From contig NC_057759.1 of NCBI RefSeq assembly GCF_004010195.1, positions 7,841,910 through 7,890,978 of the forward strand: a stretch of 49,069 bases of DNA, given 5' to 3'. Made by a program: the position numbers and the translations under genes. The notes under the pieces were generated by a model. That model saw only the letters and a list, made by a program, of their open reading frames with translations, searched no databases and was not told the origin of the DNA. The first letter of the stretch is position 1, and each line of letters begins with the position of its first letter. Below, one piece after another: positions 1,848 to 45,213 of this stretch. This DNA is from Chiloscyllium plagiosum. Lineage: Eukaryota.

Positions 1848-1883
1848 ATTCGACGTTTCGGGCACAGGCCCTTCTTCAGGAAT
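1848..1883 (-). ncRNA. Minimal type I hammerhead ribozyme motif (PLE)
   Basis: Reverse complement reads attc CTGAAGA a GGGC ctgt GCCC GAAAC GTC gaat. Confidence 0.8.
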
Positions 1884-2098
1884 GAACAGAGAGTGTTCAG
1901 CAGGAGAAGATAAAAGGTAGGGAGGAGGGACTTGGAGGAGGGGCGTTGGAAATGTGATAGGTGGAACCTCTCCGCCTCCATCCTACTCCGACCTATCACC
2001 CTCACCTTGACCTCTTTCCACCTATCACATTTCCAACGCCCCTCCTCCAAGTCCCTCCTCCCTACCTTTTATCTTCTCCTGCTGAACACTCTCTGCTC

Positions 2099-2134
2099 AT
2101 TCCTGAAGAAGGGCCTGTGCCCGAAACGTCGAAT
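2099..2134 (+). ncRNA. Minimal type I hammerhead ribozyme motif (PLE)
   Basis: attc CTGAAGA a GGGC ctgt GCCC GAAAC GTC gaat: stem I attc/gaat, stem II GGGC/GCCC, palindromic ACGT stem III, GUC cleavage triplet. Confidence 0.8.
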
Positions 2135-2229
2135 CTCCTGTTCCCTGGATGCTGCCTGACCTGCTGTGCTGTTCCAGCAATAAAGTTTCAACTTTGATCT
2201 CCAACATCTGCAGACCTCACTTTCTCCTC

Positions 2230-3199
2230 NNNNNNNNNNNNNNNNNNNNNNNNNNNNNNNNNNNNNNNNNNNNNNNNNNNNNNNNNNNNNNNNNNNNNNN
2301 NNNNNNNNNNNNNNNNNNNNNNNNNNNNNNNNNNNNNNNNNNNNNNNNNNNNNNNNNNNNNNNNNNNNNNNNNNNNNNNNNNNNNNNNNNNNNNNNNNNN
2401 NNNNNNNNNNNNNNNNNNNNNNNNNNNNNNNNNNNNNNNNNNNNNNNNNNNNNNNNNNNNNNNNNNNNNNNNNNNNNNNNNNNNNNNNNNNNNNNNNNNN
2501 NNNNNNNNNNNNNNNNNNNNNNNNNNNNNNNNNNNNNNNNNNNNNNNNNNNNNNNNNNNNNNNNNNNNNNNNNNNNNNNNNNNNNNNNNNNNNNNNNNNN
2601 NNNNNNNNNNNNNNNNNNNNNNNNNNNNNNNNNNNNNNNNNNNNNNNNNNNNNNNNNNNNNNNNNNNNNNNNNNNNNNNNNNNNNNNNNNNNNNNNNNNN
2701 NNNNNNNNNNNNNNNNNNNNNNNNNNNNNNNNNNNNNNNNNNNNNNNNNNNNNNNNNNNNNNNNNNNNNNNNNNNNNNNNNNNNNNNNNNNNNNNNNNNN
2801 NNNNNNNNNNNNNNNNNNNNNNNNNNNNNNNNNNNNNNNNNNNNNNNNNNNNNNNNNNNNNNNNNNNNNNNNNNNNNNNNNNNNNNNNNNNNNNNNNNNN
2901 NNNNNNNNNNNNNNNNNNNNNNNNNNNNNNNNNNNNNNNNNNNNNNNNNNNNNNNNNNNNNNNNNNNNNNNNNNNNNNNNNNNNNNNNNNNNNNNNNNNN
3001 NNNNNNNNNNNNNNNNNNNNNNNNNNNNNNNNNNNNNNNNNNNNNNNNNNNNNNNNNNNNNNNNNNNNNNNNNNNNNNNNNNNNNNNNNNNNNNNNNNNN
3101 NNNNNNNNNNNNNNNNNNNNNNNNNNNNNNNNNNNNNNNNNNNNNNNNNNNNNNNNNNNNNNNNNNNNNNNNNNNNNNNNNNNNNNNNNNNNNNNNNNN
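2230..3199. other. Assembly gap
   Basis: Run of N. Confidence 1.
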
Positions 3200-4544
3200 G
3201 GCACCGCCTTCCTGACCTGCAGTCGTCTTCTTGACCTCTCCGCCTCCATCCTACTCCGACCTATCACCCTCACCTTGACCTCTTTCCACCTATCACATTT
3301 CCAACGCCCCTCCTCCAAGTCCCTCCTCCCTACCTTTTATCTTCTCCTGCTGAACACTCTCTGCTCATTCCTGAAGAAGGGCCTGTTCCCTGGATGCTGC
3401 CTGACCTGCTGTGCTGTTCCAGCAATAAAGTTTCAACCTGGACAATATCAAGTCTTGGACCGACAAGTGGCAAGTAACATTGGTGCTACACAAGTGCCAG
3501 ACAATGACCATCACCAATAAGAGACACTCTAACCACCACCACTTGACATTCAATGGTATTACTATCACTGAATTCCCCCACTATCAACATCACTGGGGTT
3601 ACCATTGACCAGAAACTCAACTGGACTCACCACATAAACATTGTGGCTACAAGAGCAGGTCAGAGACTAGAGATACTGTGGCGTGTAATTCACCTCCTGA
3701 CACTTCAAGTCTATCCACCATCCACCATCCACCATCAGGAGTGTGATGGAATACTCCCCACTTGCCTGGATGGTTGCAGCTCCAACAACACTCAAGAAGC
3801 TCGACACCATCCAGGACAAAGCAGCCTGCTTGATTGGCACCACATCTACAAACATTCAATCTCTCCAGCACCAGTGGTCAGTAGCAGCAGTGTGTACTAT
3901 CTATAAGATGCACTGCAGAAATTCACCAAAGATCCTTAGACAGCACCTTCCAAACCCATGACCACTTCCGTCTAGAAGGACAAGGCAGCAGGTATTTAGG
4001 AACACCACCATCTGCAAGTTCTCCTCCAAGCCATTCACCACCCTGACTTGGAAATATACTGTCATTCTTTCACATTTGTTGGATCAAAATCCTGGAATTC
4101 TCTCTCTACTGGCATTGTGGGTCAACCTACTTCACAAAGTGGAGTGCAATAATTCAAGAAGGCAGCTCACCACCACCTTCTCAAGGGCAAGTAGTAATGG
4201 GATGTCAATGCTGGCTAGCCAGTGATACCTAATCCTATAAATGAATTTAAATAATCCCAGGCAACATCCTGATGAACTTCCTCTGTATTCTCTGTAGTGA
4301 TATCATATCCTCCTTGTAGTGAATTATCCAGAATTGTACACAGTACTCCTGCTGTCGCCTGATCAACGTTCTGTACAACTCCAACATTACCTCTTTGCCC
4401 TCATAGTTTATGCCACAATTGATGAAAGCAAGCACCCAATACACCACCTTATCCGTTCTATTCATGTTCTTTGCCGACTTCAGGGATCCATAAATAGTTA
4501 ACTCAAGATCCCTCTGCTCCTCTAAGTTACCCAGTGTCAATAGG

Positions 4545-5470
4545 TTGGAAGAACACAGCAAGCCAGGAGATGCAGAAATTAACTTTTTGGGTGTAACCCT
4601 TCAGGACTGGGGGTGGGTATAAGGGAAGCTGCAGATAAAGGGGATAGCGGGGCCAGGGTGGTGAAGTGGGGTTAGGTGAAGACTGGTAGAGAACACTACC
4701 TGGTTTGTCAATGGGAGGAATGTATCCGGTTGGTGGCAGGGAGGAGTGGAAGAGAGGGGCAGGGGCTGGGAAGGGAGTCGGGGTTGGAAAGGGGGGCTAT
4801 TTGAAATTTGAGAACTCAATGTTGAGTCCACTGGGCTGTAGGCTGTCCAGGCAGAAGCTAAGGTGTTGTTCCTCCAATTTGCGGCCTTGTTTGTTACGGC
4901 AATGGAGCAGGCCAAGAATGGTCATGTCGGAAAGGGAGTGGGAAGGGGAATTAAAATGAGGGGAGACTGGGATTTCCAGTTGTCCCCTGCGGGCCCGGCT
5001 GCGATGTGAACCATTACCTAAGTTTACATTTGGTCTTCCCAGTGTAGAAAAGACCACATCAGGAGCACCTGCTGCAGTAAACGAAAGAGAGGCTGGTGAA
5101 CCTCTGTCTCACCTGGAACGACTGTTTGGGATTCTGAATGGCGGTGAGGTGGGTGGTGTATGGGCAGGTTTTGCATCTTTTCGGGTTGCAAGGGAAGGTA
5201 CCTGGGTGTCGGGAGTTGTTGAGGAGAGTGGCGCAAACCAAGGGTTTTTGAAGTGAATGGTCATTGCGGAAGGTAGAGATTAGTGGGGTGGGGTCTGGTT
5301 GGAGTTGGCGGAACTGTTTAAGGATGATGTGTTGAATGTGGAGACTGGTGGGTGGTAGATGAGAACAAGGGTGACTTTGTCTTTATTGCGTTTGGAGGGG
5401 GTGTTTAGAGCAGTGGAATGGGGAATGGAATTAACACGGTGGAGGCCTGTCTGGATGACAGAGGGAGGAA
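4545..5470 (-). mobile_element. Neptune-type PLE 3' fragment (linker Zn finger, GIY-YIG, pLTR)
   Basis: PGTFPCNPKRCKTCP; HFNSPSHSLSDMTILGL...KLEEQHLSFCLDSLQPSGLNIEFSNF. Confidence 0.85.
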
Positions 5471-6585: not shown

Positions 6586-6626
6586 CTGTTATTCATCCTT
6601 CTCCATCAATCTCCCATGTGGTACCT

Positions 6627-8826: not shown

Positions 8827-8829
8827 AGA

Positions 8830-11008: not shown

Positions 11009-11279
11009 AATCATAGCATGTTCAATGTACATTGTACTTGAATATTTTGAAAGTGTATTTTCATTAAAATAGTACCCATTGTTTTAATAAGCTAGAGAAT
11101 GAGTATTATGCTTATTTTTTTAGAAACAAATTGCTGTCATAAAGATATTGCCTTTTCTATTGCATCATAAAATATTGCATTTTGTAAGGGATACTCAGAG
11201 TAATAGAATCACACAGTACAGAAGAGGCCTTATGGCCTTTTGAGTCTGTAGCATCAAAATATACTGCTAATTACACTAG

Positions 11280-11530
11280 GAGAAAGTGAGGACTGCAGAT
11301 GCTGGAGATCAGAACTGAAAATTTGTTGCTGGAAAAGCGCAGCAGGTCAGGCAGCATCCAAGGAGCAGGAGAATCGACGTTTCGGGCATGAGCCCTTCTT
11401 CAGGAATGAGGAAAGTGTGCCAAGCAGCCTAAGATAAAAGGTAGGGAGGAGAGACTTGGGGAGGGGCATTGGAAATGCGATAGGTGAAAGGAGGTTAAGG
11501 TGAGGGTGATAGGCCGGAGTGGGGGTGGGG
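11280..11530 (-). mobile_element. 5'-truncated Neptune PLE pLTR containing a hammerhead at 11372-11407
   Basis: TSD gctaatta(c/t)actag at 11266-11279 and 11531-11544; reverse complement attc CTGAAGA a GGGC tcat GCCC GAAAC GTC gatt. Confidence 0.85.
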
Positions 11531-12295: not shown

Positions 12296-12625
12296 CTCCC
12301 TGCTCTTAAAATCTGTGCTATGAGTTGTAAAGGCATGCGCCCATATCATGTTTTAATACCCTATTAACCTACCCTGCCATCTTCAGGGATCTGTAGACAA
12401 GCACCCCAGAATCCTTTTGTTCTCTAGTGTCTTCGATTACTTGCTTCTCTTGTTCCATTTTTCAAAGTATATCAACTCCCATTACTCAAGGTTAAATTCC
12501 ATCTACTCAATCCATTTATATCCTCTTGTAACCTAGCACCCTTGGCATCACGTCAACTACCTGACCAATCTTTGTCGTTGATTGTACTCGTTGATTGTAA
12601 TGATCTTGAATAAGGGTAAACATTT

Positions 12626-15011: not shown

Positions 15012-15021
15012 TTAAGGAAGA

Positions 15022-24644: not shown

Positions 24645-26530
24645 TAAGAATATACATAAGAACATAACTAGGAGCAGGAGTAGGCCATCTGCCCTTCAAC
24701 AGGGCTCATGCCCGAAACGTCGATTCTCCTGCTCCTTGGATGCTGCCTGACCTGCGCTTTTCCAGCAACACATTTTCAGCTCTGATCTCCAGCATCTGCA
24801 GTCCTCACTTTCTCCTCATTTGCCCTTCAAGCCTACTCCACTATTCAATAAGATCATGGCTGATCTTTTTGTGGCCTCAGCTCCATTTAGCCGTACGCTC
24901 ACCATATTCCTTTATTGTTCAAAAAAAATTTATGTTAGCTTTAAAATTGTTTACTGAAGTAGTGTCAACCAATTCACAGAGCAAGGAATTCCGTAGTTTT
25001 ACAGTTCTCTGGGTGAAAAAGTTCCTTCTCAATTCTGTTCTAAATCTGCTCCCCCTAATTTTGAGGCTATGCTGTATTTTGTCCTAGTTTCACCTGCAAG
25101 TAGAAAAATCTTCTCTACTTCTATCTTATTTATTTCCTTCATAATTTTATACATTTCTGTAAGATTCCCCCCTCATTCTTCTAAATTTCAACGAATATAA
25201 TCCCAGTCTACGCAGTCTCTCCTCATAGGCCAACCCCTTCAACTCCAGGATCAACATAGTAGACCTCCTCTGCACCCCCTCTGGTGCCAGTATATCCTTT
25301 CTCAGGTAAGGAGACCAAAATTGCATGAAGTCCTCCAGATGTGGCCTCAGCTGCAACATAGCTTCCATGCTTTTAATCTTAATCCCTTTAGCAATTAAGG
25401 ACAAAATTCCATTTGCCTTCCTAATCACTTGTACCTGCAGGCCAACTCTGTGATTCATGCATAAGGATACCCAGGTCCCTCTGCATAGTAGCATGCTGCA
25501 ACCTTTTACCATTCAAGTAATAATCCTTTTTACTGTTACTACAACCAAATTGGCTGACTTCACATTTATTTACATTGTATTCCATCTGCCAGATCTTTGC
25601 CCACTCACTCAATGTATCTATGTTCCTCTGCAAAGTTTCACAGTCCTCTGCACACTTTGCTCTATCATTCATCTTCGTGTTATCAGCAAACTTTGACACA
25701 CTACAACATGGTCCCCAACTCCAAATCATTTATGTAAATTGTGAATAATTACGGTTTCAACACTGATCCCTGAGGCACACTAGTAGTTACTGGTTGCCAA
25801 CCAGAATAGCATTTATTTCTCCCAATTCTTTTGCTTCATGTTAATCAACCAATCTTCTATCCCATGTTAATACTTTACCCATAATGCCTTGTATCTTTAT
25901 CTTATGCAGCAGCCTCTTGTGCAGCACCTTGTAGAAAGCCTTTGGAAATCTAGGTACGCCATATCCACTGGGTCCCCATTGTCCACTTTGCTTGTAATGT
26001 TTTCATAGAATTCCAAAGGATTTGTGAAGCATGACCTGCCCTTCATGAACCCATACTGTGTCTGCCTAATGGGACAATTTCTACCTTGCTGGATAGATGC
26101 TGCCTTGCTATTTCTTCCTTGATAATAGACTCAAGTATGTTCTCCACTACAGAGGTTAAGCTAACCGATCTATAACTCCCCATCTTTTGTCTACCTCCAT
26201 TTTTAAACAATGGTGTCATATTTACTGTTTTCCAATCTGCTGGGACTGCCCCAGAGTCCAGCGAAGTTTGGAAAATTACTGCAAGTGCACTTGCTATTTC
26301 TTCCTGGGATGCATTCCATCAGGGCCAGGAGACTTGCCTCCAATACCTTGCCTCTTCTGTAATAATGATTGTTTCCAGGTCCTCACCTACCTTCGTCTCT
26401 TTGTCAATTTATGGTATGTTATTAGTGTCCTTCACTGTGAAGACCGATACAAAATACCTGTTCAGTGCCTCAGCCGTAACTAAATGCCCCTTCTCATCCT
26501 CTAAAGGACCAATGTTTACTTTACCCATTT
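24645..26530 (-). mobile_element. CR1 RT and 3' end, different subfamily
   Basis: VSKFADNTK, WQMEYNVNKCEV, QFWSPYLRKDIL; (cataaga)n-like tail. Confidence 0.88.
24700..24816 (+). mobile_element. 117-bp PLE 3' tip, truncated inside the hammerhead
   Basis: TSD cat(c/t)tgcccttcaa at 24686-24699 and 24817-24830; starts at aGGGCtcatGCCCGAAACGTC and lacks CTGANGA. Confidence 0.88.
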
Positions 26531-27771: not shown

Positions 27772-27829
27772 TGCTAGTTTGTCCAGTTCCTAGGGTGTAG
27801 GTTTACTCGCTGAGCTGTGGGTTTGATAT

Positions 27830-27869
27830 CCAGACGTTTCATTACCTGGCTAGGTAACATCATCAGTGG
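27830..27869 (-). ncRNA. Type I hammerhead ribozyme motif (Poseidon pLTR)
   Basis: Reverse complement cca CTGATGA t GTTACCT agcc AGGTAAT GAAAC GTC tgg; canonical core, stem I cca/tgg. Confidence 0.88.
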
Positions 27870-28362
27870 TGACCTCCAAATGAAGCGAAGCTGTGGTCTC
27901 CTGCTTTCTATTTATAGGTTTCTCCTGGATGGGGTTCCTGGGGTTTGTGGTGATGTCATTTCCAATTCATTTACTGAGGGGTTGATCGATGGTATCTAGA
28001 TCTATGTGTTGTTTATGGCGTTGTGGTTGGAGTGCCAGGCCTCTAGGAATTCTCTGGCATGTCTTTGTTTAGCCTGTCCTAGGATAGTTGTGTTGTCCCA
28101 GTCGAAATGGTGGGTTTTTTCATCCATGTGTAAGGCTACGAGAGAGAGAGGGTCGTGTCTTTTTGTGGCTAGCTGGTGTTTGTGTGTCCTGGTGGCTAAC
28201 TTTCTTCCTGTTTGTCCTACGTAGTGTTTGTAGCAGTCCTTGCATGGAATTTTGTAGATGACATTGGTTTTGTCCATGGGTTGTACTGGGTCTTTTAAGT
28301 TTGTTCGTTTTTGTTTAAGAGTGTTGGTGGGTTTGTGTGCTACTAGGATTCCGAGGGGTCTT

Positions 28363-29292: not shown

Positions 29293-29459
29293 TATGCTAC
29301 TTTCTCCCCACCCCCACCCTCCTTTAGCTTATCTCTCCACGCTTCAGGCTCACTGCCTTTATTCCTGATGAAGGGCTTTTGCCCGAAACGTCGATTTCGC
29401 TGCTCCTTGGATGCTGCCTGAACTGCTGTGCTCTTCCACCATCACTAATCCAGAATCTT
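29293..29459 (+). mobile_element. Neptune-type pLTR nested in the Poseidon element
   Basis: Homologous to the pLTRs at 2016-2229 and 11280-11530; opposite orientation to its host. Confidence 0.8.
29361..29396 (+). ncRNA. Minimal hammerhead ribozyme motif
   Basis: attc CTGATGA a GGGC tttt GCCC GAAAC GTC gatt. Confidence 0.8.
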
Positions 29460-30287
29460 CTAAAAGTGTGGTAAGTGTTTCCTTTGCCAGGTCGAAGTTA
29501 ATGGAGATGAACAGTGCTGTTACGTCTTCCTCTATTTTGGTGTTTTTGATGATTTTTAGGAATTCCTGGGTGGAATGGATAGAGTGCTGTGACTCTTCTA
29601 CTAAGTATTTAAATCTTGCGTGGAGTTCTTTGGCCAGTCTGTAAGTTGGTGTTCCGGGTAGTGAGACTATGGGTCTGAGGGGTGCTCCTGGTTTATGGAT
29701 TTTCGGTAGTCCGTAGAATCGTGGGGTGTTGGTCCCGTCTGGTTTCATTTTTTGGATTTCCATCTTAATTAATTGTCCGGAATTGTGTAATTTTCTTCGG
29801 AGATATGTAATTTTGTTTCCTAGTTGTGGGGTCGGGTCTAGCACCACCTGTTGGTAGGTGTTGGTGTCTGCGAGTAGTGCATTGGCTTTCTCTATAGTCC
29901 CTTCTGTTCGGGATGACTGTGAGCCAACCTTTGTCTGCAGGTAATATGACGATGTTTTTGTCTTTTTTGAGGTTTTCTTGGCATTCTTTTCTTGTGTGTT
30001 CAGTTTGCCTCCTTCCCTCTTTCGGCTCAGAGTAGGTGCAACTGTGTGTCTGATCATTTGTTGTTTCTTCCGTGATTTTGTTGTCCTTCAATGTGGTTTG
30101 TAATGCTGCTAGGAAATCCTTCTTGTCAGTGCCTCGGTAATTGAAATTTAGTCCTTTTACTAGTACACTTTTTCTGTGTCTGATAGGGTTTGGTCTGATA
30201 AGTTCTTTATCCATGCCCCTGTGTTATCGGTTTTGTCTTTGTGAGTTTGTCAAGTTTTTCTTCAGGTCCCGATTTTTCTTTATCTGT

Positions 30288-30588
30288 TGTTGTGGTTCTG
30301 TTCACCGAGCTGGGAATTTGTGTTGCAGACATTTCGTCCCCTGTCTAGGTGACATCCTCAGTGCTTGGGAGCCTCCTGTGAAGCACTTCTGTGGTGTTTC
30401 CTCCGGCATTTATAGTGGTTTGTCTCTGCCGCTTCTGGTTGTCAGTTCCAGCTGTCCACTGCAGTGGCCGGTATATTGGGTCCAGGTCGATGTGTTTGTT
30501 GATAGAATCTGTGGATTAGTGCCAGGCCTCTAGGAATTCCCTGGCTGTTCTCTTTTTAGCTTGTCCTATAATAATAGTGTTGTCCCAG
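30288..30588 (-). mobile_element. 3' end of a second Poseidon subfamily nested in the first
   Basis: 13-bp TSD tttctttatctgt at 30275-30287 and 30589-30601; REFLEAWH-type endonuclease end and pLTR. Confidence 0.85.
30325..30364 (-). ncRNA. Hammerhead ribozyme motif (Poseidon variant)
   Basis: Reverse complement gca CTGAGGA t GTCACCT agac AGGGGAC GAAAT GTC tgc. Confidence 0.75.
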
Positions 30589-31559
30589 TTTCTTTATCTG
30601 TGTTTGTTGTTGTTTGGTGTTTATGGCTCGTTCTACCGCGTCTGTCCATTCTTGATTTGTTCCTTGTTTGAATAACGGTTTTTGGCGCGCAATTTCCCGG
30701 TTGTATTTTCCTCAAGTGCTTTGTAGGCAGAAAAAAGGCACGGAAAATGCAGCAAGTCCACAGCATTTGAAGTTGAAGAATAATTAGATTAACTCATCAT
30801 AAATATGGAAATGGGTGAAATTAATGAAAAAAAATAAGATTAATGTCAGGTAATTTCATTTGTGGGTCAAATGCGCAAAGTATCAGTATCAGTATTGTAT
30901 ATGTTTGTTGCATTTGTGATCAAAGTAATTTCTTTCTTCTGCAATTATATCAAAATTAGCTCAAATTGCTTCAAACCACAAAAGAAAGAGAGAGACTGGA
31001 AGATGGAGGAGGCAGCAAACCTTTATAGTTACTAATTTTTAGCTGCAAGTGTTAAAATGTCCGTGGAGAATGAAGATCTGCATTTGATGCAGGGAGCTGT
31101 ATACCATGAATATTGGCATTTAAACTGTTGCAGTCTTGTCCAATTTTATGAGGGTGATGCTCTGATAGGAGTGCAGGATTGTTAAATTCTTCCCTGAAAT
31201 TTTTACTTAAAACTAGTTGGAATTGTGAAGGAGGTCAGAGGCTGAAAAATTATGAAACAAGACTGGACGCTAACATAAAAGGAAATCCCAAAATCTTCTA
31301 TAAGCATCTTCGTAATAAGATGGTAGTAAAAGGAGTGAGGCTAATCAGACCAAAGAGGCATGACTCAGCCATTAAATGAAACTCTAAATCTGTCTTTACC
31401 TATGAGGTAGATAGATACTGCACAGGTCACGGTGACAGGAGGAAACTCAGGTTTACATTTTGCCTTATATTTGAATATTTCAAGTTGAAGTACTTGAAAT
31501 CACTGGAACCAGATGATATGCACCCAAGGATATGGAAGGAAGTGAGAATGGAGATTATA

Positions 31560-32385: not shown

Positions 32386-35300
32386 TAGAACATTTACATA
32401 GAACATACACCGAATATTACAGCGCTGTACAGGCTCTTCAGCCCTCTATGTTGTGCCGACCTGTCATACCAATCTGAAGCCCATCTAACCTACACTATTC
32501 CATGTATGTCCATATGCTTGACCAATGACGACTGAAATGTACTTAAAGTTGACGAATCTACTACCATTGCAGGCAAAGCATTCCACACCCTTACTACTCT
32601 CTGAGTAAAGAAGCTACCTCTGACACCTGTCCTATATCTATCACCCCTCAAGACTTTCCCTCCATACCAGGCAACATCGTAGTAAATCTCCTCTGCACCC
32701 TTTCCAAAGCTTCCACATCCTTCTTATAATGTGGTGACCAGAACTGTACACAATACTCCAAATGCGACCGCATTGGAGTTTTGTACAGCTGTAGCATAAC
32801 CTCATGGTTCCGGAACTCGATCCCTCTATTAATAAAAGCTAAAACACTGTATGCCTTCTTAACAACCTTGTAAAGGTGGGTGGCAACTTTCAAGGATCTG
32901 TGTACATGGACACCGAGATCTCTCTGCTCACCTACACTACCAACAATCTTACCATTAGCCCAGTACTTTGCATTTCGGTTACTCCGACCAAAGTGAATCA
33001 CCTCACAATTGTCCGCATTAAATTCCATTTGCCATCTCTCAGCCCAGCTCTGCAGCTTATCTATGTCTCTCTGTAACCTACAACCTCCTTTGTCACTATC
33101 CACAACTCCACCGACCTTAGTGTCGTCTGCAAATTTTCTAACCCACCCTTCTACGCCCTCATCCAAGTCGTTTATAAAAATGATGAACAGCAGTGGACCC
33201 AACACTGACCCTTGCGGTACACCACTAGTAACTGGAATCCAAGATGAATATTTCATATCAACCACAACCCTCTGTCTTCTTTCAGCAAGCCAATTACTGA
33301 TCTAAACTGCTATATCTCCCACAATCCCATTCCTCTGCATTTTGTACAATAGTCTGCTGTGGGGAATCTTATTGAACACCTTGCTGAAATCCATATACAC
33401 CACATCAACCGGTTTACTCTCATCTATCTGTTTAGATCAATGCCAAAGGCTCGGCAATCTCCTCCCTGGCTTCCCAGAGGATCCTAGGATAAATCCCATC
33501 TGGGATGGAAATGTGTTGCTGGAGAAGCGCAGCAGGTCAGGCAGCATCTAGGGAACAGGAGAATCGACGTTTCGGGCATTAGCCCTTCTTCGGCAACACA
33601 TTTCCATCTCTGATCTCCAGCATCTGCAGAACTCATTTTCTCTTCAAAGATAAATCCCATCTGGCCCAAGGGACTTGTCTATTTTCACACTCTGCAGGAT
33701 TTCTAATACCTCTCCCTTGTGAACCTTAATCCCACCTAGTCTCGTAGCTTGTATCTCAGTATTCTCCTCAATAATATTGTCATTTTCTAGAGTGAATACT
33801 GTTGAAAAATATTCATTCAGTGCTTCTCCTATTTCCTCTGACTCTACACACAACTTCCCATTATTATCCTTGATTGGCCCTAATCTTACTCTTGTCATTC
33901 TTTTATCCCTTAAATACCTATAGAAAGCGTTAGGGTTTCCCCTGATCCTATCCGCCAACAACTTCTCGTGTCTCCTCCTGGGTCTTCTGAGCGCTCTCTT
34001 TTTAGGTCTTTCCTGACTACCTTGTAACCCTCAAGCACCCTAACTGAGCCTTCACATCTCATCCTAACATAAGTCGTCATCTTCTTCCCCTTGACCAGAG
34101 ATTCCACTTCCTTCGTAAACCACACGTCTCACGCTCTCCAGCTTCCTCCCTGCCTGACAGGTACATATTTACCTAGGGCACACCGTAACTTTTCCTTGAA
34201 TAAGCTCCACATTTCTAATGTGCCTATCCCCTGCAGTTTCCTTCCCCATTCTATGCTTTGTAAATCTTGCCGAATCGCATCGTAAATTCCTTTCCCCCAG
34301 CTGTAACTCTTGCCCAGTGGTGTACACCTATCCCTTTCTATCACAAAAGTAAACATAACAGAATTGTGATCGCTATCACCAAAGTGCTCACTTACTTCCA
34401 AATTTTCACACCTGGCCAGGCTCATTACCCAGTACCAAATCCAATGTGGCTTCGCCCCTTAGCCTGTCTACATACTGTGTCAAGAAGTCCTCCTGCACAC
34501 ACTGGACAGAAACTGACCCATCTATAGTACTCGTACTATAGTGTTCTCAGTCAATATTTGGACAGTTGAAGTCCCCCATGGCAACTACCCTGTCTCTCTC
34601 ACTCCTATCGAGAATCATCTTTGCTATCCTTTCCTCTACACCTCTGGAACTATTCGGAGGCATACAGAAAATTCCTAACAGAATGACCTCTCCTTTCCTG
34701 TTTCTAACCTCAGCCCACACTACCTCAGTTGACGAGTCCCCAAACATCCTTTCTGCAACTGTAATACTGTCCTTGACCAATAATGCCAACCTCCCTCTCT
34801 TTTACCATCTTCTCTGTTCTTACTGAAACATCTAAATCCTGGAACCTGCAACAACCATTCCTGTCCCTGCTCTATCCATGTCTCCGAAATGGCCACAACA
34901 TTGAAGTCCCAGGTACCAACCCATGCTGGAAGTTCACCCACCTTACTCCGGATGCTCCTGGCATTGAAGTAGACACACTTCAAACCAACCTCTTGCTGGC
35001 CGGTGCCATCTTGTGTCCCTGAAACTTGATTTCGGACCTCCCTACTCTCAACCTTTTCTATATCAAACTACAATTTTGGTTCCCATCCCCCTGCTGTATT
35101 AGTGTAAACCCACCTCAATAGCCTTAGCGAATCCCCCCCCCCAGGATATTGGTACCCGTCTGGTTCAGATGAAGACCATCCTGCTTGTAGAGGTCCCACC
35201 TATCCCAGAAAGAGCCCCAATTATCCAAGAATCCAAAACCCTTCCTCCTGCACCATCCCTGTAGCCACGTGTTCAACTCCTCTCTCTCCCTCTTCCTCAC

Positions 35301-35845: not shown

Positions 35846-37018
35846 CCTTTCCCTTATCAGGTCTCAAGTTTAACTTAAAATATTTAAGTCATTAAAGGTG
35901 GCAGTATTCATAACAATACAATAGATTTTTTTTACAGAAAATAGACATTAAGATATCTTCTAGGCTTCGTAAGTAAGGATATAGAGAACAAAAGCAGTGG
36001 AATTACAATGAATTTAATCTAAGACGTAGGTTGGACCTCAACTAGAATACGAAAGGATACGAACACATGACAGAAAGTGCAGAAGAGGCTTACAAGAATG
36101 TTTCCAGGATGTGATACTTCAGTAATGAGGAGAAATTGTTTTCCTTGGACAGGAGAAGACGAAGAGAAAATTTGAGTAGAAATGACTGACACCAAATTAA
36201 AATGCAGGTTCAGACAAGGTGGGCCAAATTGCCTCCTACACCATAATAAGTCTGTTGATATAACAATGGGAGAGAGGATTATAATGATAGCCTCAAAGAA
36301 GTTTTAATGTTGTTTAAGAACATAGGCAAACAAGGATACTTATTCCACCTTTCAATTTGATCATGGCTGATAAGTATTTTCACTTCATTGACCAGCCTTG
36401 TTATGCTTGTGCATGGAGTACAGAAGTCTGAAATGGTCACAAAGTCTGTATTTTATTCTCTGCGCATAGAGGATATCAAATTGGATATATCCAAATAAAT
36501 TGGAAAATAGCAGACAAAAATCATTGTCGTGGGGAAGAAACAAATGTGTGCTGTTCTGCATTGCAGCGACAGTCCAAGGAAGAGTAATTGAGAACCCTGA
36601 TAGAAAAATGAACAAAGATGATTTGGAGATGCCGGTGAAGGACCGGGGTGTACAAAGTTAAAAATCTCACAACACCAGATTATAGTCCTACAAGTTTAAT
36701 TGGAAGCTCTAGCTTTTGGAGCACTGCTCCTTCATCAGGTAATTTTGGAGTACAAAATTGTAAGTCACAGAATTTACATCAAAAGTTTACAGTGTGATGT
36801 AACTGAAATTATACGTTGAAAAAATACCTTGATTGTTTGTTAAGTCTCTCATCTGTTACGATGAGCATGATAGTTTCATTTCTTTCATACGTAAATCACA
36901 AAACTTTTTTTAAAAATTAAAAATCACACACCAGGTTATAGTCCAGCAGATTTAATTGTAAGTGCCGCTCCTTCATCAGGTGGTTGTGTCCTACATAGTA
37001 CAACTCTGTTAATTCATT

Positions 37019-37330
37019 GGGCGGCACAGTGGCACAGTGGTTAGCACTGCTGTCTCAGAGTGCCAGAGACTTGTGTTCAAATCCTGCCTCAGGCACATTC
37101 TCCCTGTGTCTGCGTGGATTTCCTCCGGGTGCTCCGGTTTCCTCCCACAGTCCAAAAAAGGTGAATTGGCCATGTTAAATTGCCTGTAGTGTTAGGGGCA
37201 GGGGTAAATGTAGGGAAATGGGTCTGGGTGGGTTACGCTTCGGCGGGTCGGTGTGGACTTGTTGGGCGTGTGGACTTGTTGGGCCGAAGGGCCTATTTCC
37301 ACACTGTAAGTAATCTAATCTAATCTAATC
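37019..37330 (+). mobile_element. HE1-like SINE inserted in the spacer of the inverted-repeat element
   Basis: Head, central domain and (taatc)n tail; 17-nt tandem duplication gtgtggacttgttgggc. Confidence 0.92.
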
Positions 37331-37605
37331 AGTCTAAATATTATGGCGCAACCAACAGAACACAGAGGGCTAACACCTTCAACATCTTATCTGGCCTGAC
37401 ACCAATTGTTACAGTTAACCTGAGAATGTAACTTTTTAAAAAAAAGTTTTGTGGTTTACATATGAAAGAAGTGAAACTGTCATGCTCATCCTAACAGATG
37501 AGAGACTTAAGAAACAATCAAGGTATTTTTCAATGTATAATTTCAGTTACATCACACTGTAAACTTTTGCTATAAATTCTGTGTCTTACAATTGTGCACT
37601 CCACA

Positions 37606-37642
37606 ATTACCTGATGAAGGAGCAGTGCTCCGAAAGTGAGTG
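37606..37642 (+). ncRNA. Hammerhead-like motif with GGAGC/GCTCC stem II (stem III mutated)
   Basis: attac CTGATGA a GGAGC agt GCTCC GAAA gtgag; the partner copy reads ...GCTCC AAAAGCTA. Confidence 0.65.
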
Positions 37643-37982
37643 CTTCCAATTAAACCTGTAGTAGGACTATAACCTGGTGTTGTGATTTTTTAACTTTGAA
37701 CAAAGATGACATAGCGAAACAGAGGGAAGCTGCATATAGTGGATGGCAGATGACCAGCTGTGTGTACTGGCAGTTGAGACAGAAGATGATGACAGGATGA
37801 GTCCAGTTGTCACTATACGGTAGTCAAAATGGAGATACAGGATATGGGATGGATGCAACGAACAAAGAAAATTACAGCACAGGAACAAAGCCTCCAAGCC
37901 TCCGCCAATCCAGATCCTCTATCTAAACCTGTCGTCTATTTTCTAAGGGTCTGTATCCCTTTGCTCCCTGCTCATTCATGTA

Positions 37983-39742
37983 TAGAGTAATAGAGTCATA
38001 GAGATGAACAGCATCGAAACAGACCCTTTGATCCAACCATGCCGACCAGATATCCCAACCCAATCTAGTCCCACCTACCAGCACCCGGCTCCAAACCCTT
38101 TCTATTCATATACCCATCCAAATGGGTCTTAAATGTTGCAATTGTACCAGCCTCCACCACATCCTCTGGCAGCTCATTCCATACCTGATCACCCTCTGTG
38201 TGAAAAAGACCCTTAGGTCTCTCTCATATCTTTCCCCTCTCACCCTGAACCTGTGTCCTCTAGTTCTGGACTTCCTCACCCCAGGGAAAAGACTTTGTCT
38301 ATTTACCCTATCCATGCCCATTATAATTTTGTAAACCTCTATAAGGTCACTCCTCAGCCTCCGAAGTTACAGGGAAAACAGCCCCTGTTCAGCTTCTCCC
38401 TACAGCTCAAATCCTCCAATCCTGGCAACATCCTTGTAAATCTTTTCTGAACCCTTTCAAGTTTTACAACATCCTTTCCGATAGGAAGGAGACCAGAATT
38501 GCACGCAATATTCCAACACTGGCCTAACCAATGTCCTGTACAGCTGCAACTTGACTTCCCAACTCCTGTATTCCATACTCTGACCAAAAGCCTTCTTCAC
38601 TATCCTATCTACCTAAGACACCACTTTCAAGGAGCTATGTATCTGCACTCCAAGGTCTCTTTGTTCAGCAATACTGCCTAGGACCTTACCATTAAGTGTT
38701 TAATTCCTGCTAGGATTTGCTTTCCCAAAATGCAGCACCTCACATTTATCTAAATTAAACTCCATCTGCCACTTCTCAGCCCATTGGCCCATCTGGTCAA
38801 GACCCCATTGTAATCTGAGTAACCTTCTTCGCTGTCCGCTACAACTCCAATTTTGGTGTCATCAGCAAACTTACTAACTATACCTCTTATGCTCACATCC
38901 AAATCATTTATATAAATGATGGAAATTAGTGGACCCAGGATCAATCCTTGTGGCACTCTACTGGTCACAGGCCTCCAGTCTGAAAAACAACCCTCCACCA
39001 CCACCCTCTGTCTTCTACCTTTCAGCCAGTTCTGTATCCAAATGGCTAGTTCTCCCTGTATTCCATAAGATCCAACCGTGCTAATCAGTCTCCTGTGGGG
39101 AACCTTGTCGAACACCTTACTGAAGTCCATATAGACATCTACCGCTCTGCCCTCATCAATCCTCTTTGTTACTTCCTCAAAAAACTCAATCAAGTTTGTG
39201 AGACATGGTTTTCCACGCACAAAGCCATGTTGACTATCCCTAATCAGTCCTTGTCTTTCCAAATACATGTACATCCTGTCCCGCAGGATTCCCTCCAACA
39301 AAGTGCCCACACAGATGTCAGGCTCACAGGTCTATAGTTCCCTGGCTCGTTCTTACCATCTTTCTTAAACAGTGGCACCACATTAGCCAACCTCCAGTCT
39401 TCCGGCACCTCACCTGTGCCTATCGATGATACAAATATCTCAGCAAGGGGCCCAGCAATCACTTCCCTAGCCTCCCACAGAGTTCTAAGGTACATCTGAT
39501 CAAGTCCTGGGGATTTATCCACTCTTATGCCTTTCAAGACATCCAGCATTTCCTCCTCTGTAATCTGGACATTTTGCAAGATGCCACCATCTATTTCCCT
39601 ACATTCTATATCTTCCATATCCTTTTCCACAGTAAACACTGATGCAAAATACTCGTTTAGCAACAACCCCATCTCCTGCAGCTCCACATAAATGCCGCCT
39701 TGCTGACCTTATTCTCTCCCTAGTTATCCTTTTGTCCTTAAT
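37983..39742 (-). mobile_element. 5'-truncated CR1, very similar to 22209-23803
   Basis: QHGFVRGK, YMDFSKVFDKVPH, FADDTKIG and TRGHRFRVRG motifs. Confidence 0.93.
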
Positions 39743-40349: not shown

Positions 40350-41800
40350 GACACTATCCCTGTGCCTGCCCCTACCACTTGGGCTGACAACACGTTCCAG
40401 GCACCCACCACCCTCTGCATCTAGAACTTTCCAAGCGTATCTCCCCTAAACTTTTCCTCTCTCACTTTGAACTCGTGACCCCTGGTAACTGAGTCCTCCA
40501 CTCTGGGGGAAAAAAAACTCCTTGCTATCCACCCTGTCTATACTTCATAATTTTGTTGACCTCAATCAGGTACCCTCTCAACCTCTGTCTTTTTAATGAA
40601 TATCCTAATCTACTTAACCTGTCTTCATAGCTAGCCATACCAGGCAACATCCTGGTGAACCTCCTGTGCACCCTGTGCAAAGCATCCACATCCTTTTGGT
40701 AATGTGGTGACCAGAAATGTGGCCCAACCAAAGTCTTAATTGAGAGTGTGTTGCTGGAAAAGCACAGCAGATCAGGCAGCATCTGAGGAGCAGGAAAATC
40801 AACATTTCGGATCGGAGCCCTTCATCAAGAATGCTTTTTCAGGGACACCCTCTCAACTCTGATCTCCAGCATCTGCAGACCTCACTGTCTCTAGTTGAAC
40901 CAAAGTCTCATACAACCGTAACATGACCTGCCAACTCTTGTACTCAACATCCTGTCCGATGAAGGAAAGCATGTTGTCTTGACCACTCTACTGACCTGCT
41001 TTGCCACCTTCAGGGAACAATGGACCTGAACACCCAGATGTCTCTGTACATTAATTTTCCTCAGGACTTTTCCATTTGCTATATAGTTCACTCTTGCATC
41101 TTTCAAAATGCATCACCTTGCATTTGCCCAGATTGAACTCTATCTGCCCAACTCTCCAATCTATCTATATTCCGTTGTATTTTCCGATAGTCCCCTTCAC
41201 TATCTGCTACCCCATCAATCTTAGTGTCACCTACAAACTTGCTAGTCACACTGCCTACACCTTCCTCCGAATCATTTATGTAAATCACAAACAACAGTGG
41301 TCCCAGCACAGATCCCTGTGAAACACCACTGGTCATAGGTCTCCATTTTGAGAAACTCTCTTCCATTACTACTGTCTGTCTCCTGTTGACCAGCCAGATC
41401 TCTGTCCATCTAGCTCGTGCACTCTGGACCTCATGTGACTTCACCTTCTCAATCAGCCTGCCATGGGGAACCTTATTCAATGCCGTACTAAAGTCCATGT
41501 ATATGACATTTACAGCCCTTCTCTCATCAATCAACTTTGACACTTCCTCAAAGAATTCTATTTGGTTTGTAAGACATGACCTTCCCTGCACAAAACCATG
41601 TTGCCTATCACTGGTCAGCCCATTTTCTTCCAAATAGGAGTAGACCCTATCCCTCAGTATGTTGTGCAGCAGATTCCGTACCAGTGACATCAGACTTCAC
41701 CGGTCTATAATTACCTGGATTATCCCTGCTACCCTTCAAAAGGGGACAACATTAGCAATTCTCCAGTCCTCCGGGACCTCACCCGTGTTCAAGGATGCAG
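40350..41800 (-). mobile_element. CR1 RT and 3' fragment
   Basis: QHGFVQGRSCLTN, SGVSQGSVLGPLLFVIYIND and FVGDTK motifs. Confidence 0.88.
40737..40897. mobile_element. Short inverted PLE tip insertion
   Basis: TSD aaccaaagtct at 40726-40736 and 40898-40908; same inverted architecture as 33504-33648; decayed hammerhead on minus strand near 40797-40832. Confidence 0.8.
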
Positions 41801-43000
41801 TTGATAGTGTTACTTCTTTACATATACATTTGCTCATGAAGATGTTTCATTGTAAATTATCCACTAGATAAGGCTAAGGAAAAATAATTTTTCAAAACTG
41901 TTGTATGTAAAAATAATTATAATTTCTATTTAATTTTACATCGTAAACTTGAATGTTGGACGATTGATTAAGTTTGCGGACGATGCAAAAATTGGTGAGG
42001 TGGCAAAAAGTGAGGAGGATAACTTCAGCTTACTAAGATTGCAGACGACAAAGATTGGTTGTGTGGTCAACAGTACAATTGAGTGTCTTGGGCTACAAGA
42101 GTATGTAACTAGGATGGTCAAATGAGCAATAAGTTGCAGGTAGAATTTACACATCTTTAATTTGACAAGGAAGCATTCAATGAACGGCATGGCACGAGGA
42201 AGTACTGTGGAAAAAGGCACCTTGGGGTGTTTGTCCACAATCCCTGAAGGCGGAAGAGCATGTTACTATGGTGGTGGAAAAGGCATACGGGATACTTCCC
42301 TTTACCATTCAAGGCTTGTATCACCAAATGCCCAAAAGTCACGTTGGAGTTGTATAGAACTTTGGTGAGACCACAGCTGCTACACAATACTATGTGCTGT
42401 TCTCGTTGCCACATTATAGGAAGGATGGGATTACATTGGAGGGGGTGCAGAAGATATTGACCAGAATGCTATCTGGGCTGAAAAATTTAAGTTATGAGGG
42501 AAGTTTGGATAGACTTGGGTTGGTTTTGTTGAAACAGAGAAGACAAGGGGCAATCTATTTAAGGTGAACAAGATTATGATAGGCATGGACAGAGTGGATA
42601 AGGAGCAACTATCCCCTTAGTTGAAGAGTCAGTCAAAAAGGACACAGGTTCAAGATGAGGGACAGAAAGTTTAATTGGGATGTGAGGATAAATCTTATTA
42701 CTCAGAAGGTTGTGAATTCTGGAATGCGCTACCTAGGAGCATATTGCCTCACATCCTTTTTAAAAGTACCTGGACTTAGCATATCGTAACATTTCAAGGC
42801 TATGGGCCAGTTGCTGGTAAATGGGGTTAGGTTGATTGTCAGGTGTTTCTCACTGTTTGTACAGATGGGCTTTAGGATCTGTTCTACAACATCAAGGTGG
42901 GCTGCTCAGATGGGCTGATCACTGGCAGAGGGATTTCAATCTGGAAAAGTGTGAGGTGATGCAGTTGGGCAGGACAACATGGCAAGGGAATACATGATGA

Positions 43001-44684
43001 GCTGAAAAATGTGTTGCTGGAAAAGCGCAGCAGGTCAGGCAGCATCCAAGGAGCAGGAGAATCGATGTTTTGGGCATAAGCCCTTCTTCAGGAATGAGGA
43101 AGGTGTGCCAAGCAGGCTAAGATAAAAGGTAGGGAGGAAGGACTTGGGGGAGGGGCATTGGGAATGCGATAGTTGGAAGAGGTTAAGGTGAGGGTGATAG
43201 GCCGGAGAGGGGGTGGGGGTGGAGAGGTCGGGAAGAAGATTGCAGGTCAAGAAGGCGGTGCTGAGTCCGAGGGTTGGGACTGAAATAAGGTGGGGGGAGG
43301 GGAAATGAGGAAGCTGGAGAAATCTGCATTCATCCCTTGTGGTAGGAGGGTTCCTAGGCGGAAGATGAGGCGCTCTTCCTCCAGGTGTCGTGTTGCCATG
43401 GTCTAGCGATGGAGGAGGCCAAGGACCTGCATGTCCTTGGCGGAGTGGGAGGGGGAGTTAAAGTGTTCAGTCTCGAGGCAGTTGGGTTGGTTGGTGCGGG
43501 TGTCCCAGAGGTGTTCTCTGAAACGTTCCGCAAATAGGCGGCCTGTCTCCCCAATGTAGAGGAGGCCACATCGGGTGCAACAAATGCAGTAAATGATGTG
43601 TGTGGAGGTGCAGGTGAATTTGTGACGGATATGGAAGGATCCCTTGGGGCCTTGGAGGGAATTGAGGTGGGAGGTGTGGGCGCAAGTTTTGTATTTCTTG
43701 CGGTTGCAGGGTAAGGTGCCGGGAGTGGAGGTTGGGTTGGTGGGGGGTGTGGACCTGACAAGGGAGTCGCGGAGGGAGTGGTCTTTCCGGAACGCTGATA
43801 GGGGAGGGGAGGGAAAGGTATCCTTGGTGATGGGGTCCGTTTGGAGGTGGCGGAAATGACGAAGGATGATACGATGTATCTGGAGGTTGGTGGGGTGGTA
43901 GGAGAGGACTAGTGGGGGTTCTGTCCTGGTGGCGATTGGAGGGGCGGGGTTCAAGGGCGGAGGAGCAGGAAGTGGAGGAGATGTGGTGGAGAGCATCATC
44001 AACCACATCTGAGGGGAAATTGCGCCCTTTGAAGAAGGAGGCCATCTGGGTTGTTCGGTATTGGAATTGGTCCTCCTGGGAGCAGATGCGGCGGAGGCGA
44101 AGGAATTGGGAATATGGGATGACGCTTTTACAGGGGGCAGGGTGGGAGGAGGTGGGAGTCGGTTGCCCGAGATAGAAATGGAAAGGTCCAGGAAGGGGAG
44201 GGAGGAGTCTGAGACGGTCCAGGTAAATTTGAGGTTGGAGTGGAAGGTGTTATTAAAAGTGGATGAACTGTTTAACCTCCTCGTGGGAGCACGAGGTAGC
44301 GCCAATACAGTCATCGATGTAGCGGAGGAAAAGGTGGGGGGTGGTGCCAGTGTAGCTGTGGAAGATGGAGTGTTCCACGTATCCTAGGAAGAGGCAGGCA
44401 TAGCTGGGGCCCATGCGGGTGCCCATGGCTACTCCTTTGGTTTGGAGGAAGTGGGAGGATTGGAAAGAGTTGTTCAGAGTGAGGACTAGTTCAGTCAGTC
44501 GAAGGAGGGTGTCAGTGGAAAGGTACTGGTTGGTTCGGCGGGAAAGGAAGAAGCGGAGGGCTTTGAGGCCTTCGTGATGGGGGATGGAGGTGTATAGGGA
44601 CTGGATATCCATGATGAAGATAAGGCGTTGGGGACCGGGGAAGCAAAAATCATGGAGGAGGTGGAGGGTGTGGGTGGTGTCCCA
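43001..44684 (-). mobile_element. 5'-truncated Neptune-type Penelope-like element (RT core, Zn-finger linker, GIY-YIG, pLTR)
   Basis: 17-bp TSD aagggaatacatgatga at 42984-43000 and 44685-44701; MDIQSLYTSIPH, GVAMGTRMGPSYA, RYIDDC, CNRKKYKTC, IIYCICCTRCGLLYIGETGR; CpG-decayed hammerhead at 43060-43095. Confidence 0.95.
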
Positions 44685-44992
44685 AAGGGAATACATGATG
44701 AATGGTAGGACCCTGAGAAGCTCGAGAATCAGATGGACCTTGGTATGTATGTCTACCAGACACTTCACATAGTGGACAGGTACATAGTGGTTAAGAAGGC
44801 ATTTGGGTACTTCTCTTTATTAGCCCAAAGTGTAATAGAGCCTGCAGACGCTGCATCGGTCTGTGTATCACCTGCAGACTCACCCTCAGAGGAGAAGAGA
44901 GTCATCATTGTCTGTGAGGGGCCATTGATGATGATAAGCCATTGCATGGAGTTTAAGAGCAGGAGGGTTAAGCTGGAGCTAAATAAATGTTT

Positions 44993-45213
44993 GTCAAAAA
45001 GTGTGGTGCTGGAAAAGAACAGTTGGCCAGTTAGCATCTGAAGAACAGGAGAATCGATGTTTCGGGTATAAGCCCTTCGTCACATCCCTGATGAAGGGTT
45101 TATGCCCGAAACATCGATTCTCCTACTCCTTGGATGCTGCCAAACCTGCTCTGCTTTTCCAGGACCACGCTTTTCGACTCTGATTTCCAGCATCTGCAGT
45201 CCTTGCTTGCTCT
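44993..45213. mobile_element. Fold-back PLE tip with two back-to-back hammerhead motifs
   Basis: Arms ~44993-45082 and ~45089-45178; plus-strand core CTGATGA a GGGT ttat GCCC GAAAC ATC at 45088-45115. Confidence 0.82.

What the first reader, a model, noticed from the sequence alone, without database searches (positions are those of the whole stretch)
1848..45119. Three distinct families of minimal hammerhead ribozymes scattered through the HERC1 upstream intron
Seen: over a dozen CTGANGA-x-stemII-GAAA-palindrome-UH motifs. Neptune type (GGGC/GCCC stem; loop varies ctgt, tcat, tttt, taat, ttat while the stem is kept): 1848(-), 2099(+), 3368(+, deleted), 11372(-), 24701(+, partial), 29361(+), 33562(-), ~40797(-), 43060(-), ~45050(-), 45084(+). 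Poseidon type (7-bp stem II): 27830(-), 30325(-). GGAGC/GCTCC type: 36706(-), ~36961(-), 37606(+). All carry one extra nucleotide between the core and stem II and a tiny palindromic stem III (ACGT or AGCT). Established: PLE pLTRs carry minimal type I hammerheads thought to cleave as dimers. Inference: three PLE lineages with different ribozymes coexist in this shark genome, and sense-strand copies are transcribed within HERC1 pre-mRNA.
Basis: partly seen in the sequence, partly recalled or inferred. Interest (0 to 1): 0.72.

Follow-up and report, generated by a model that had tools for sequence, protein, structure and literature searches.

The report
Shark Penelope hammerheads at RNA start
These motifs are copies of a tiny "hammerhead" self-cutting RNA motif already known from Penelope-like jumping genes; they occur about 100,000 times in this genome and are mostly broken, likely passive passengers in the HERC1 intron, but the shortened copies begin just in front of the motif with an extra G, which likely marks where the element's capped RNA starts.

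Summary
The motifs are real, and HERC1 intron 1 is confirmed, but the list is inflated. Of 16 motifs, 7 keep every core base, 5 also keep the palindrome and 3 of those have an unbroken stem I; they come from about 11 insertions. All three types lie downstream of Penelope-like element (PLE) GIY-YIG ORFs: two linker-bearing (Neptune-like) lineages and one Poseidon lineage. Exact genome counts are 75,939, 6,902 and 14,732, with control 0. The window is not enriched and sense copies are not significantly depleted. PLE minimal hammerheads are published (PMC4209133). The added result is that 5' ends of short copies pile up at the ribozyme's 5' edge (117 of 177 and 29 of 58). They carry an excess G before one A (23 of 49, 16 of 28; control 8 of 34), and in one family that A lies 30-32 nt behind TATAAA. 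This likely marks a capped start, copied uncut. A footprint at the cut site was inconclusive. The scan noted this start-site pattern before on other DNA. Cleavage is untested.

The parts
1753..3437 (.). One family-A (CTGT loop) composite insertion: inverted pLTR copy, forward copy, an N run and a third, internally deleted copy; flanked by a 15-bp target-site duplication
   Evidence: arms 212 of 214 identical
1848..1883 (-). Intact minimal type-I hammerhead, family A; 4-bp stem I; predicted cut after 1852; antisense to HERC1
2099..2134 (+). Intact minimal type-I hammerhead, family A; 4-bp stem I, GUC, predicted cut after 2130; base 2099 corresponds to the predicted transcription start; best sense candidate
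3367..3390 (+). Family A copy with the 3' half of the ribozyme deleted (dead)
4589..5382 (-). Fourth PLE lineage (D): EN-linker fragment (47% identical to family A) and a decayed hammerhead at about 4570-4608
   Evidence: intact-type pattern has 106 exact genome matches
11279..11523 (-). Family A pLTR (TCAT loop); hammerhead 11372-11407 with core and palindrome intact and a U-U mismatch in stem I
24701..24815 (+). Family A stub truncated inside the ribozyme (no CUGA), with target-site duplication
27791..28361 (-). Poseidon-type (family B1) GIY-YIG end and pLTR; intact hammerhead 27830-27869 with 7-bp stem II; predicted cut after 27833
29293..29458 (+). Family A (TTTT loop) pLTR inserted in the Poseidon remnant; hammerhead 29361-29396, core intact, U-U mismatch in stem I; predicted cut after 29392
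29460..30589 (-). Poseidon-type B2 pLTR (hammerhead 30325-30364, palindrome decayed to ATGT) followed by broken N-terminal/RT frames; 79% identical to the B1 pLTR, so not a matched pair
33498..33642 (-). Family A stub with inverted tail; core CCGAAGA (U4>C), no stem I 5' strand
36618..37702 (.). Family C (GGAGC/GCTCC, AGCT, CUA cut triplet) inverted composite with a SINE inside; three broken motifs at 36706-36741(-), 36950-36982(-), 37608-37643(+); 11-bp target-site duplication
40738..40891 (-). Old family A stub (C3>U, stem II broken) with inverted tail
43002..44816 (-). 5'-truncated linker-bearing PLE (family A): RT (PF00078, E 1e-8), CX-CxxC linker remnant, GIY-YIG (PF01541, E 5e-4), then pLTR with dead hammerhead 43060-43095 (G12>A)
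44997..45212 (.). Inverted pair of old family A stubs: 45050(-) dead; 45084(+) core intact but palindrome and stem I broken
45804..46760 (+). HERC1 first coding exon (ATG at 45830); window 1-45803 is intron 1

Best explanation
These are the 3' terminal repeats (pLTRs) of at least three Penelope-like retroelement lineages, each carrying a minimal type-I hammerhead that is likely functional only in the parent element's RNA; in the two Neptune-like lineages the ribozyme likely forms the first 32-37 bases of the capped transcript, and the copies in HERC1 intron 1 are likely passive insertions. Shown: PLE parentage, about 1e5 copies, a core held constant between lineages while stems covary, two fixed 3' ends 30-40 nt apart, a pile-up of 5' ends at the stem I 5' strand, an excess G before one particular A, and TATAAA 30-32 nt upstream in family C. 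Inferred: RNA polymerase II starts at that A. The PLE protein primes reverse transcription internally at one of two sites about 55-100 nt past the cut site (shown in vitro for an anole PLE, PMC11167929). When it primes in the transcript's own front pLTR it runs off the cap after about 100-130 nt and leaves a short stub with an extra G; priming in a downstream pLTR gives long copies. Stubs hold the uncut ribozyme, so uncleaved RNA is the usual template. Cleavage would be slow, dimer- or protein-dependent, and would remove the cap plus 32 (A) or 37 (C) nt, or cut unit-length RNA from tandem read-through.
For: Parentage: family A motif downstream of RT+GIY-YIG in the window. Family C motif 477-1062 nt downstream of a GIY-YIG with a CHGRRCKTC linker in 12 of 25 oriented loci, of 30 fetched, with RT PF00078 E 5e-10. 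Family B has a GIY-YIG without the linker, and its ORF starts at stem II. Covariation in 35 distinct family-B motifs: 92% of cells paired, stem I outer pair CG:17/GC:12/UA:3, stem II pair UA:17/CG:12, 27 cells changed on both sides against 9.8 shuffled (core columns were fixed by my selection, and related sequences inflate this). 5'-end hazard in an unselected 1.37-Mb sample at -10..+4 from the C of CUGA: A 117 of 177 at risk, C 29 of 58, against 3-18% in all other 15-nt bins except the adjoining upstream bin of A (32%). Genome-wide base before ATTCCTGAAG: G 10,476, A 5,197, T 2,070. Unique-flank copies only (hand tallies of the first 100 listed matches): G in 23 of 49 (p 0.003) and 16 of 28 (p 0.001) against 28% expected; control position 8 of 34. 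TATAAA at -30/-32 in 5 of 6 family-C copies. An extra G at full-length L1 5' junctions reflects the cap (PMC11702581, one passage). A TSS inside the pLTR is known for Penelope and Chlamys-3 (PMC8557442, passages).
Against: No RNA 5' end was observed: raw reads showed no start or end pile-up (the library is not suited to this). Over the whole -12..0 peak G is not enriched (21 of 63, p 0.29); the excess is confined to one position, and inverted junctions add templated G. The classification into unique, inverted and native flanks was by eye on 16-18 nt. Family A has no TATAAA, only TTATCT at about -30. Family B has TATAAA but no pile-up (5 of 31 ends between -18 and +2). In family C, target-site duplications were found in only 4 of 26 non-inverted peak copies (control 1.55). 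Stem I of most A subfamilies has a U-U mismatch; predicted stem I energy is +0.2 to +1.4 and the ACGU duplex -1.7 kcal/mol. No cleavage was measured.
Confidence: 0.62

Rival explanations
1. Same elements, but the 5'-end pile-up is a reverse-transcription or repair hot spot rather than a transcription start: the RT stalls or switches template after passing the folded or protein-bound hammerhead, helped by ATT microhomology and by stem I self-complementarity.
For: The anole PLE endonuclease prefers ATT (PMC11167929), and family A's peak sits on ATT. Many peak copies abut an inverted copy with 1-4 nt microhomology. Hazard already rises inside the motif (12-18%).
Against: Family C peaks with no ATT there. 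The G excess is position-specific in two unrelated lineages and holds in unique-flank copies. In family C it sits at canonical TATA distance.
Confidence: 0.25
2. Sense-strand copies cut HERC1 pre-mRNA in intron 1 and so affect HERC1 expression (a co-opted or harmful ribozyme).
For: 2099 is an intact sense motif with a 4-bp stem I. Sense copies are fewer than antisense in HERC1: 17 against 29 spanning the motif, 5 against 10 passing the descriptor.
Against: Neither bias is significant (p 0.10 and 0.30), and a SINE shows a similar 15:23. Window density is 5 against 3.2 expected (p 0.22). Only 2 sense copies keep the palindrome, 27 kb apart. Published monomers of this type are inactive, and dimers are weak or need the element's protein (PMC4209133, PMC11167929). 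Base for base, inserted copies decay in the core about as in the flanks.
Confidence: 0.05
3. The short stubs are an independent non-autonomous SINE- or retrozyme-like family that re-mobilises through its own short (possibly circular) RNA.
For: Most copies are 100-130 nt with fixed ends and very high copy number. Retrozymes derive from PLE pLTRs and were found in one chondrichthyan (bioRxiv 2026.07.22.740005).
Against: Stubs share loop variants with long ORF-bearing copies, lack the upstream promoter region, and are single or inverted rather than head-to-tail arrays (no such tandem array in the window).
Confidence: 0.08

Closest known systems
[quoted passage not shown]
   Same: Type I, short helix I, one extra base between positions 9 and 10.1, G at 10.1, palindromic 15.2-16.2, several families per genome, mostly single truncated copies, some in opposite-strand pairs.
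   Different: The text read names fishes, coelacanth (about 4,000), Xenopus (about 9,000) and reptiles, not sharks; here there are at least 97,573 exact matches. It reports no pile-up of 5' ends or extra G. Family C has a CUA triplet with an AGCU palindrome.
PAc, Poseidon PLE of the green anole, Frangieh et al. 2024 (PMC11167929; parts 1-2 of 4 read, whole main text)
   Same: Two internal RT start sites giving a 30-40-nt optional tail (here bimodal 3' ends in all three families). ORF starts at stem II (family B). Uncleaved RNA is the template; no RNA ends at the cut site.
   Different: PAc was shown in vitro to be a protein-assisted ribozyme; nothing here was assayed. The main text does not map the TSS to the ribozyme edge.
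Neptune/Nematis versus Penelope/Poseidon clades, Craig et al. 2021 (PMC8557442; passages read)
   Same: C-terminal GIY-YIG; CX2-5CxxC linker present in A, C and D, absent in B; inverted 5'-truncated copies next to the pLTR; TSS inside the pLTR for Penelope and Chlamys-3.
   Different: No reference proteins were compared, so Neptune versus Nematis is not resolved here.
Non-LTR retrozymes of vertebrates (bioRxiv 10.64898/2026.07.22.740005; parts 1-2 of 5 and passages read)
   Same: Type-I hammerheads derived from PLE pLTRs; one chondrichthyan sampled; 8 of 9 Xenopus dimers did not cleave.
   Different: Retrozymes are head-to-tail arrays; the window's copies are single or inverted stubs.

Membership tests
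Minimal type-I hammerhead of PLEs | Core CUGANGA ... GAAA ... UH around stem II, closed by stem I | tested here: met
   Complete in 3 of 16 window motifs by the strict descriptor, core complete in 7 of 16; 93 in 1.37 Mb against 0 control
Minimal type-I hammerhead of PLEs | One unpaired base between A9 and 10.1; G10.1-C11.1 | tested here: met
   Extra base in 91 of 93 hits; G-C in A, C and B2, G-U in B1 (GU:20, GC:15)
Minimal type-I hammerhead of PLEs | Palindromic 15.1-16.1 segment allowing dimer helix III | tested here: met
   Family patterns with ACGT (A, B) and AGCT (C) match 75,939, 6,902 and 14,732 times; intact in 5 of 16 window motifs
Minimal type-I hammerhead of PLEs | Compensatory changes in stems between subfamilies | tested here: met
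   Family B, 35 distinct motifs: 2 of 10 pairs change on both sides, 27 cells against 9.8 shuffled. Not tested by this tool for A or C.
Minimal type-I hammerhead of PLEs | Self-cleavage (as dimer or protein-assisted) | not testable with these tools
   No assay; genomic footprint at the cut site inconclusive
Rfam hammerhead families | Match to a covariance model | tested here: not met
   No hammerhead among 9 matches at E<=5
EN+ Penelope-like element | RT followed by C-terminal GIY-YIG, motif in the downstream pLTR | tested here: met
   A; B: (GIY-YIG E 0.002, below the Pfam cut-off); C:
EN+ Penelope-like element | Inverted 5'-truncated neighbour and optional 30-40-nt tail | tested here: met
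Neptune/Nematis clades (families A, C, D) | CX2-5CxxC linker upstream of GIY-YIG | tested here: met
   one Cys is mutated in the window's own A copy
Neptune clade specifically | RT phylogeny with reference Neptune and Nematis proteins | not tested
   No named references at hand; the preprint found only Neptune and Poseidon in vertebrates
Penelope/Poseidon clade (family B) | No linker Zn finger; ORF starts at stem II | tested here: met
   RT tree not built
Non-LTR retrozyme | At least two head-to-tail units, each with a complete hammerhead | tested here: not met
   no such array in the window; not surveyed genome-wide

The most novel reading that the evidence does not exclude
In Neptune-like PLEs the hammerhead is the capped 5' tip of the transcript and acts as a protein- or dimer-triggered self-decapping switch. 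Cutting would remove the cap plus 32-37 nt and move the RNA from mRNA to processed or circularisable template, while tens of thousands of cap run-off stubs record the uncut state. This shark-type genome would then be a fossil map of both the start site and, at low frequency, the cut site.
Probability: 0.25. Interest if true: 0.72.

Novelty: new member of a known kind. Interest (0 to 1): 0.4.

Why it matters
As given, the finding is a published kind of motif in a new host at ten times the copy numbers quoted for coelacanth or Xenopus, with no sign of a role for HERC1. What PLE hammerheads do is still open (PMC8557442, PMC11167929). Placing the ribozyme at the capped 5' tip of the transcript in two lineages gives exact, testable RNA ends, explains why most copies are about 100-130-nt stubs, and extends to genomic insertions the in vitro result that uncut RNA is the template.

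Tried and rejected
Rfam scan: only miRNA-like hits on the 1753-2229 inverted repeat, no hammerhead. Monomer folding: no z-score below -1.8 in 7 folds; co-folding two copies gave no convincing hammerhead dimer, and the nested algorithm cannot represent every dimer form. Exact-sequence look-up of the HERC1 exon found nothing. No RNA holder was listed as such. Only 7 raw reads fell on the exon-2 stretch, so intronic expression was not testable. On a family-A copy 2,267 reads of one single-cell run were laid in both orientations, 95% running on into other sequence, with no start or end pile-up; the second raw run gave 0. This is neither for nor against a TSS or cleavage. Cut-site footprint: by hand tally 16 of 100 listed truncated copies begin exactly after the cut, against a mean of about 6 at other positions, but 15 begin at +33 by microhomology and 7 of the 16 are inverted or deletion junctions; in the unselected sample 3 of 286. 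Inconclusive. Selection on inserted copies: core 2.5% against flank 5.9% mismatches in A and 6.7% against 8.9% in C, but the core is A-rich and the flank includes subfamily differences; not taken as selection. Splicing as the cause of the shared 5' end: rejected, as there is no AG acceptor at that place and unique flanks are not shared. The family-C junction script returned 0 rows through an offset error; one search replaced it. The family-A summary line was cut from view, so no target-site-duplication count is given for A. Long open frames fetched were mostly N-filled; no full-length element was examined. Paper searches for shark PLE hammerheads or a cap signature found none; most subscription papers and the supplements of PMC4209133 were not seen.
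Full report
Observation. The 16 listed sites are present. A strict descriptor (stem I of 3 bp or more, CUGANGA, stem II, GAAA, UH) finds three in the window, against 0.01 per Markov control. A relaxed one with a palindrome requirement finds 93 in 1.37 Mb of this genome and none in the reversed sequence. The list is inflated: 7 of 16 keep all core bases, 5 keep the palindrome too, and 3 of these have an unbroken stem I. None of the three GGAGC-type copies in the window is intact. Target-site duplications and inverted pairs reduce the 16 motifs to about 11 insertions. Rfam does not detect them.

Host gene. The exon at 45804-46760 encodes a protein 85-91% identical to vertebrate HERC1 N-termini and is spliced at both ends in contigs of three runs. 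The 5' loose end of one contig from a related organism maps 13.7 kb upstream of the window, before a GT donor, and the 3' loose end maps 7.9 kb past the exon. All motifs therefore lie in a first intron of about 59.5 kb. The genome is 3.56 Gb.

What the motifs belong to. Family A (GGGC/GCCC, ACGT, GUC) follows RT and GIY-YIG frames at 43406-44816. Family B (7-bp stem II) follows a GIY-YIG without linker at 28005-28361, and in one long copy the reading frame starts at stem II. The two window copies of B are different subfamilies, 79% identical. Family C (GGAGC/GCTCC, AGCT, CUA) has no ORF in the window, but in 12 of 25 oriented genome loci (30 fetched) it lies 477-1062 nt downstream of a GIY-YIG with a CHGRRCKTC linker, with a PF00078 RT upstream. 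The three proteins share about 25-39% identity. By the linker criterion of PMC8557442 (passages read), A and C are Neptune- or Nematis-type and B is Poseidon-type. A fourth, decayed lineage lies at 4589-5382; an intact-type pattern for it matches 106 times. Exact genome counts are A 75,939, B 6,902 and C 14,732, each with a reversed control of 0. The relaxed descriptor extrapolates to about 240,000. Variation between subfamilies falls on N7, loop II and paired stem positions. In 35 distinct B motifs the outer stem I pair is CG, GC or UA and one stem II pair is UA or CG. This points to selection on the master elements' RNA. Inserted copies show no clear base-for-base protection of the core.

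HERC1 is probably incidental. The window holds 5 descriptor-passing motifs against 3.2 expected (p 0.22). Over 240 kb of HERC1, sense against antisense is 17:29 (p 0.10) and 5:10 for descriptor-passing motifs (p 0.30); LINE remnants give 23:26 and a SINE 15:23. Only 2099 and 29361 are sense with an intact palindrome. Predicted helices are marginal. Published monomers of this type are inactive and dimers weak (PMC4209133, parts 1-2 read); the anole PLE ribozyme cleaves only with the element's protein (PMC11167929, main text read); 8 of 9 Xenopus retrozyme dimers did not cleave (bioRxiv 2026.07.22.740005, passage).

Where the copies begin and end. In the unselected sample, 3' ends are bimodal in all three families, 30-40 nt apart. 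These match the two internal RT start sites and tail of PMC11167929. The 5' ends of A and C pile up at -10..+4 from the C of CUGA: 117 of 177 and 29 of 58 copies that reach this bin end in it, against 3-18% in other bins apart from the adjoining upstream bin of A at 32%. Young copies there have target-site duplications or an inverted partner, so in those the ends are real and not a homology boundary; older copies are less certain. One position stands out. Before ATTCCTGAAG the non-native base is G 10,476, A 5,197 and T 2,070 times. Inverted junctions supply some templated G, so I sorted the first 100 listed matches by eye and kept unique flanks. For A I dropped 51 inverted, duplicated, native or ambiguous rows and found G in 23 of 49. 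For C (A at -8) I dropped 72 and found G in 16 of 28. At a control position two bases further in I dropped 66 and found 8 of 34. Expected is 28-31%. In family C that A lies 30-32 nt behind TATAAA in 5 of 6 copies; in A it lies in TCATTCC or TTATTCC, which fits the initiator consensus as I recall it. An extra G marks cap copying in full-length L1 insertions (PMC11702581, one passage). Against this reading: G is not enriched over the whole peak (21 of 63), family A lacks a TATA box, family B has one but no pile-up, and no RNA start was seen.

Mechanism. Transcription likely starts at the first base of stem I (A) or five bases before it (C), so the ribozyme is the capped tip of the RNA. Internal priming in this front pLTR would run off the cap and leave a 100-130-nt stub with an uncut ribozyme; priming in a downstream pLTR gives long copies. 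Cleavage, if it happens, would need a partner or the protein and would remove the cap with 32 or 37 nt, or release unit-length RNA from tandems. A footprint at the cut site is inconclusive: 16 of 100 truncated copies start there, but 15 start at +33 through microhomology. The main rival is an RT stall or template-switch hot spot at the folded motif.

Known and new. The motif class, its PLE context, inverted pairs, tails and a TSS somewhere in the pLTR are published. My searches found no paper on shark PLE hammerheads or on a cap signature at the ribozyme edge; subscription papers and the supplements of PMC4209133, which list species, were not seen. PMC6155905 and PMC11371274 were read in passages only and add nothing used here. 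I noted the pile-up and start-site idea before reading earlier scan notes, which report the same pattern on other DNA of this and other genomes; two of them prompted the cut-site test. Verdict: new member of a known kind, ordinary for HERC1, with a moderately supported and testable addition about where PLE RNA begins.

Noticed in passing
window 4589-5382 (-): A fourth PLE lineage with CNPKRCKTC linker and a decayed hammerhead (GTC/GAC stem I, GGGT/ACCC stem II); 106 exact intact-type copies genome-wide.
   Followed up: partly
window 15800-16400 (-): An old C-rich PLE-like remnant ending in a pLTR whose tail resembles family A; possibly a fifth lineage; ribozyme not recognisable.
   Followed up: no
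   Followed up: partly
window 1753-2229: A 214-bp, 99% perfect inverted repeat inside HERC1 intron 1; it would form a long RNA hairpin in pre-mRNA (editing or small-RNA substrate) and would sequester the sense ribozyme at 2099.
   Followed up: no
family A genome-wide: Most A subfamilies have a U-U mismatch in stem I (GATT); only the CTGT-loop subfamily has a perfect 4-bp stem I (GAAT). A natural pair for activity tests.
   Followed up: partly
L061-L090, family B: TATAAA 50-53 nt before CUGA in 3 of 4 copies printed, and a shared GCTTCAC about 30 nt behind it, suggest a start near -18; few stubs end there.
   Followed up: partly
window, many places (e.g. 12624-12917, 22448-23647, 32651-33301, 38210-39609): Abundant tRNA-head SINEs and CR1/L2-like LINE remnants, typical of elasmobranch genomes as I recall.
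   Followed up: no
G000:C50, about 175-194 kb upstream of the window (L091-L093): Two intronless ORFs of 328-370 aa that look like seven-transmembrane receptors.
   Followed up: no
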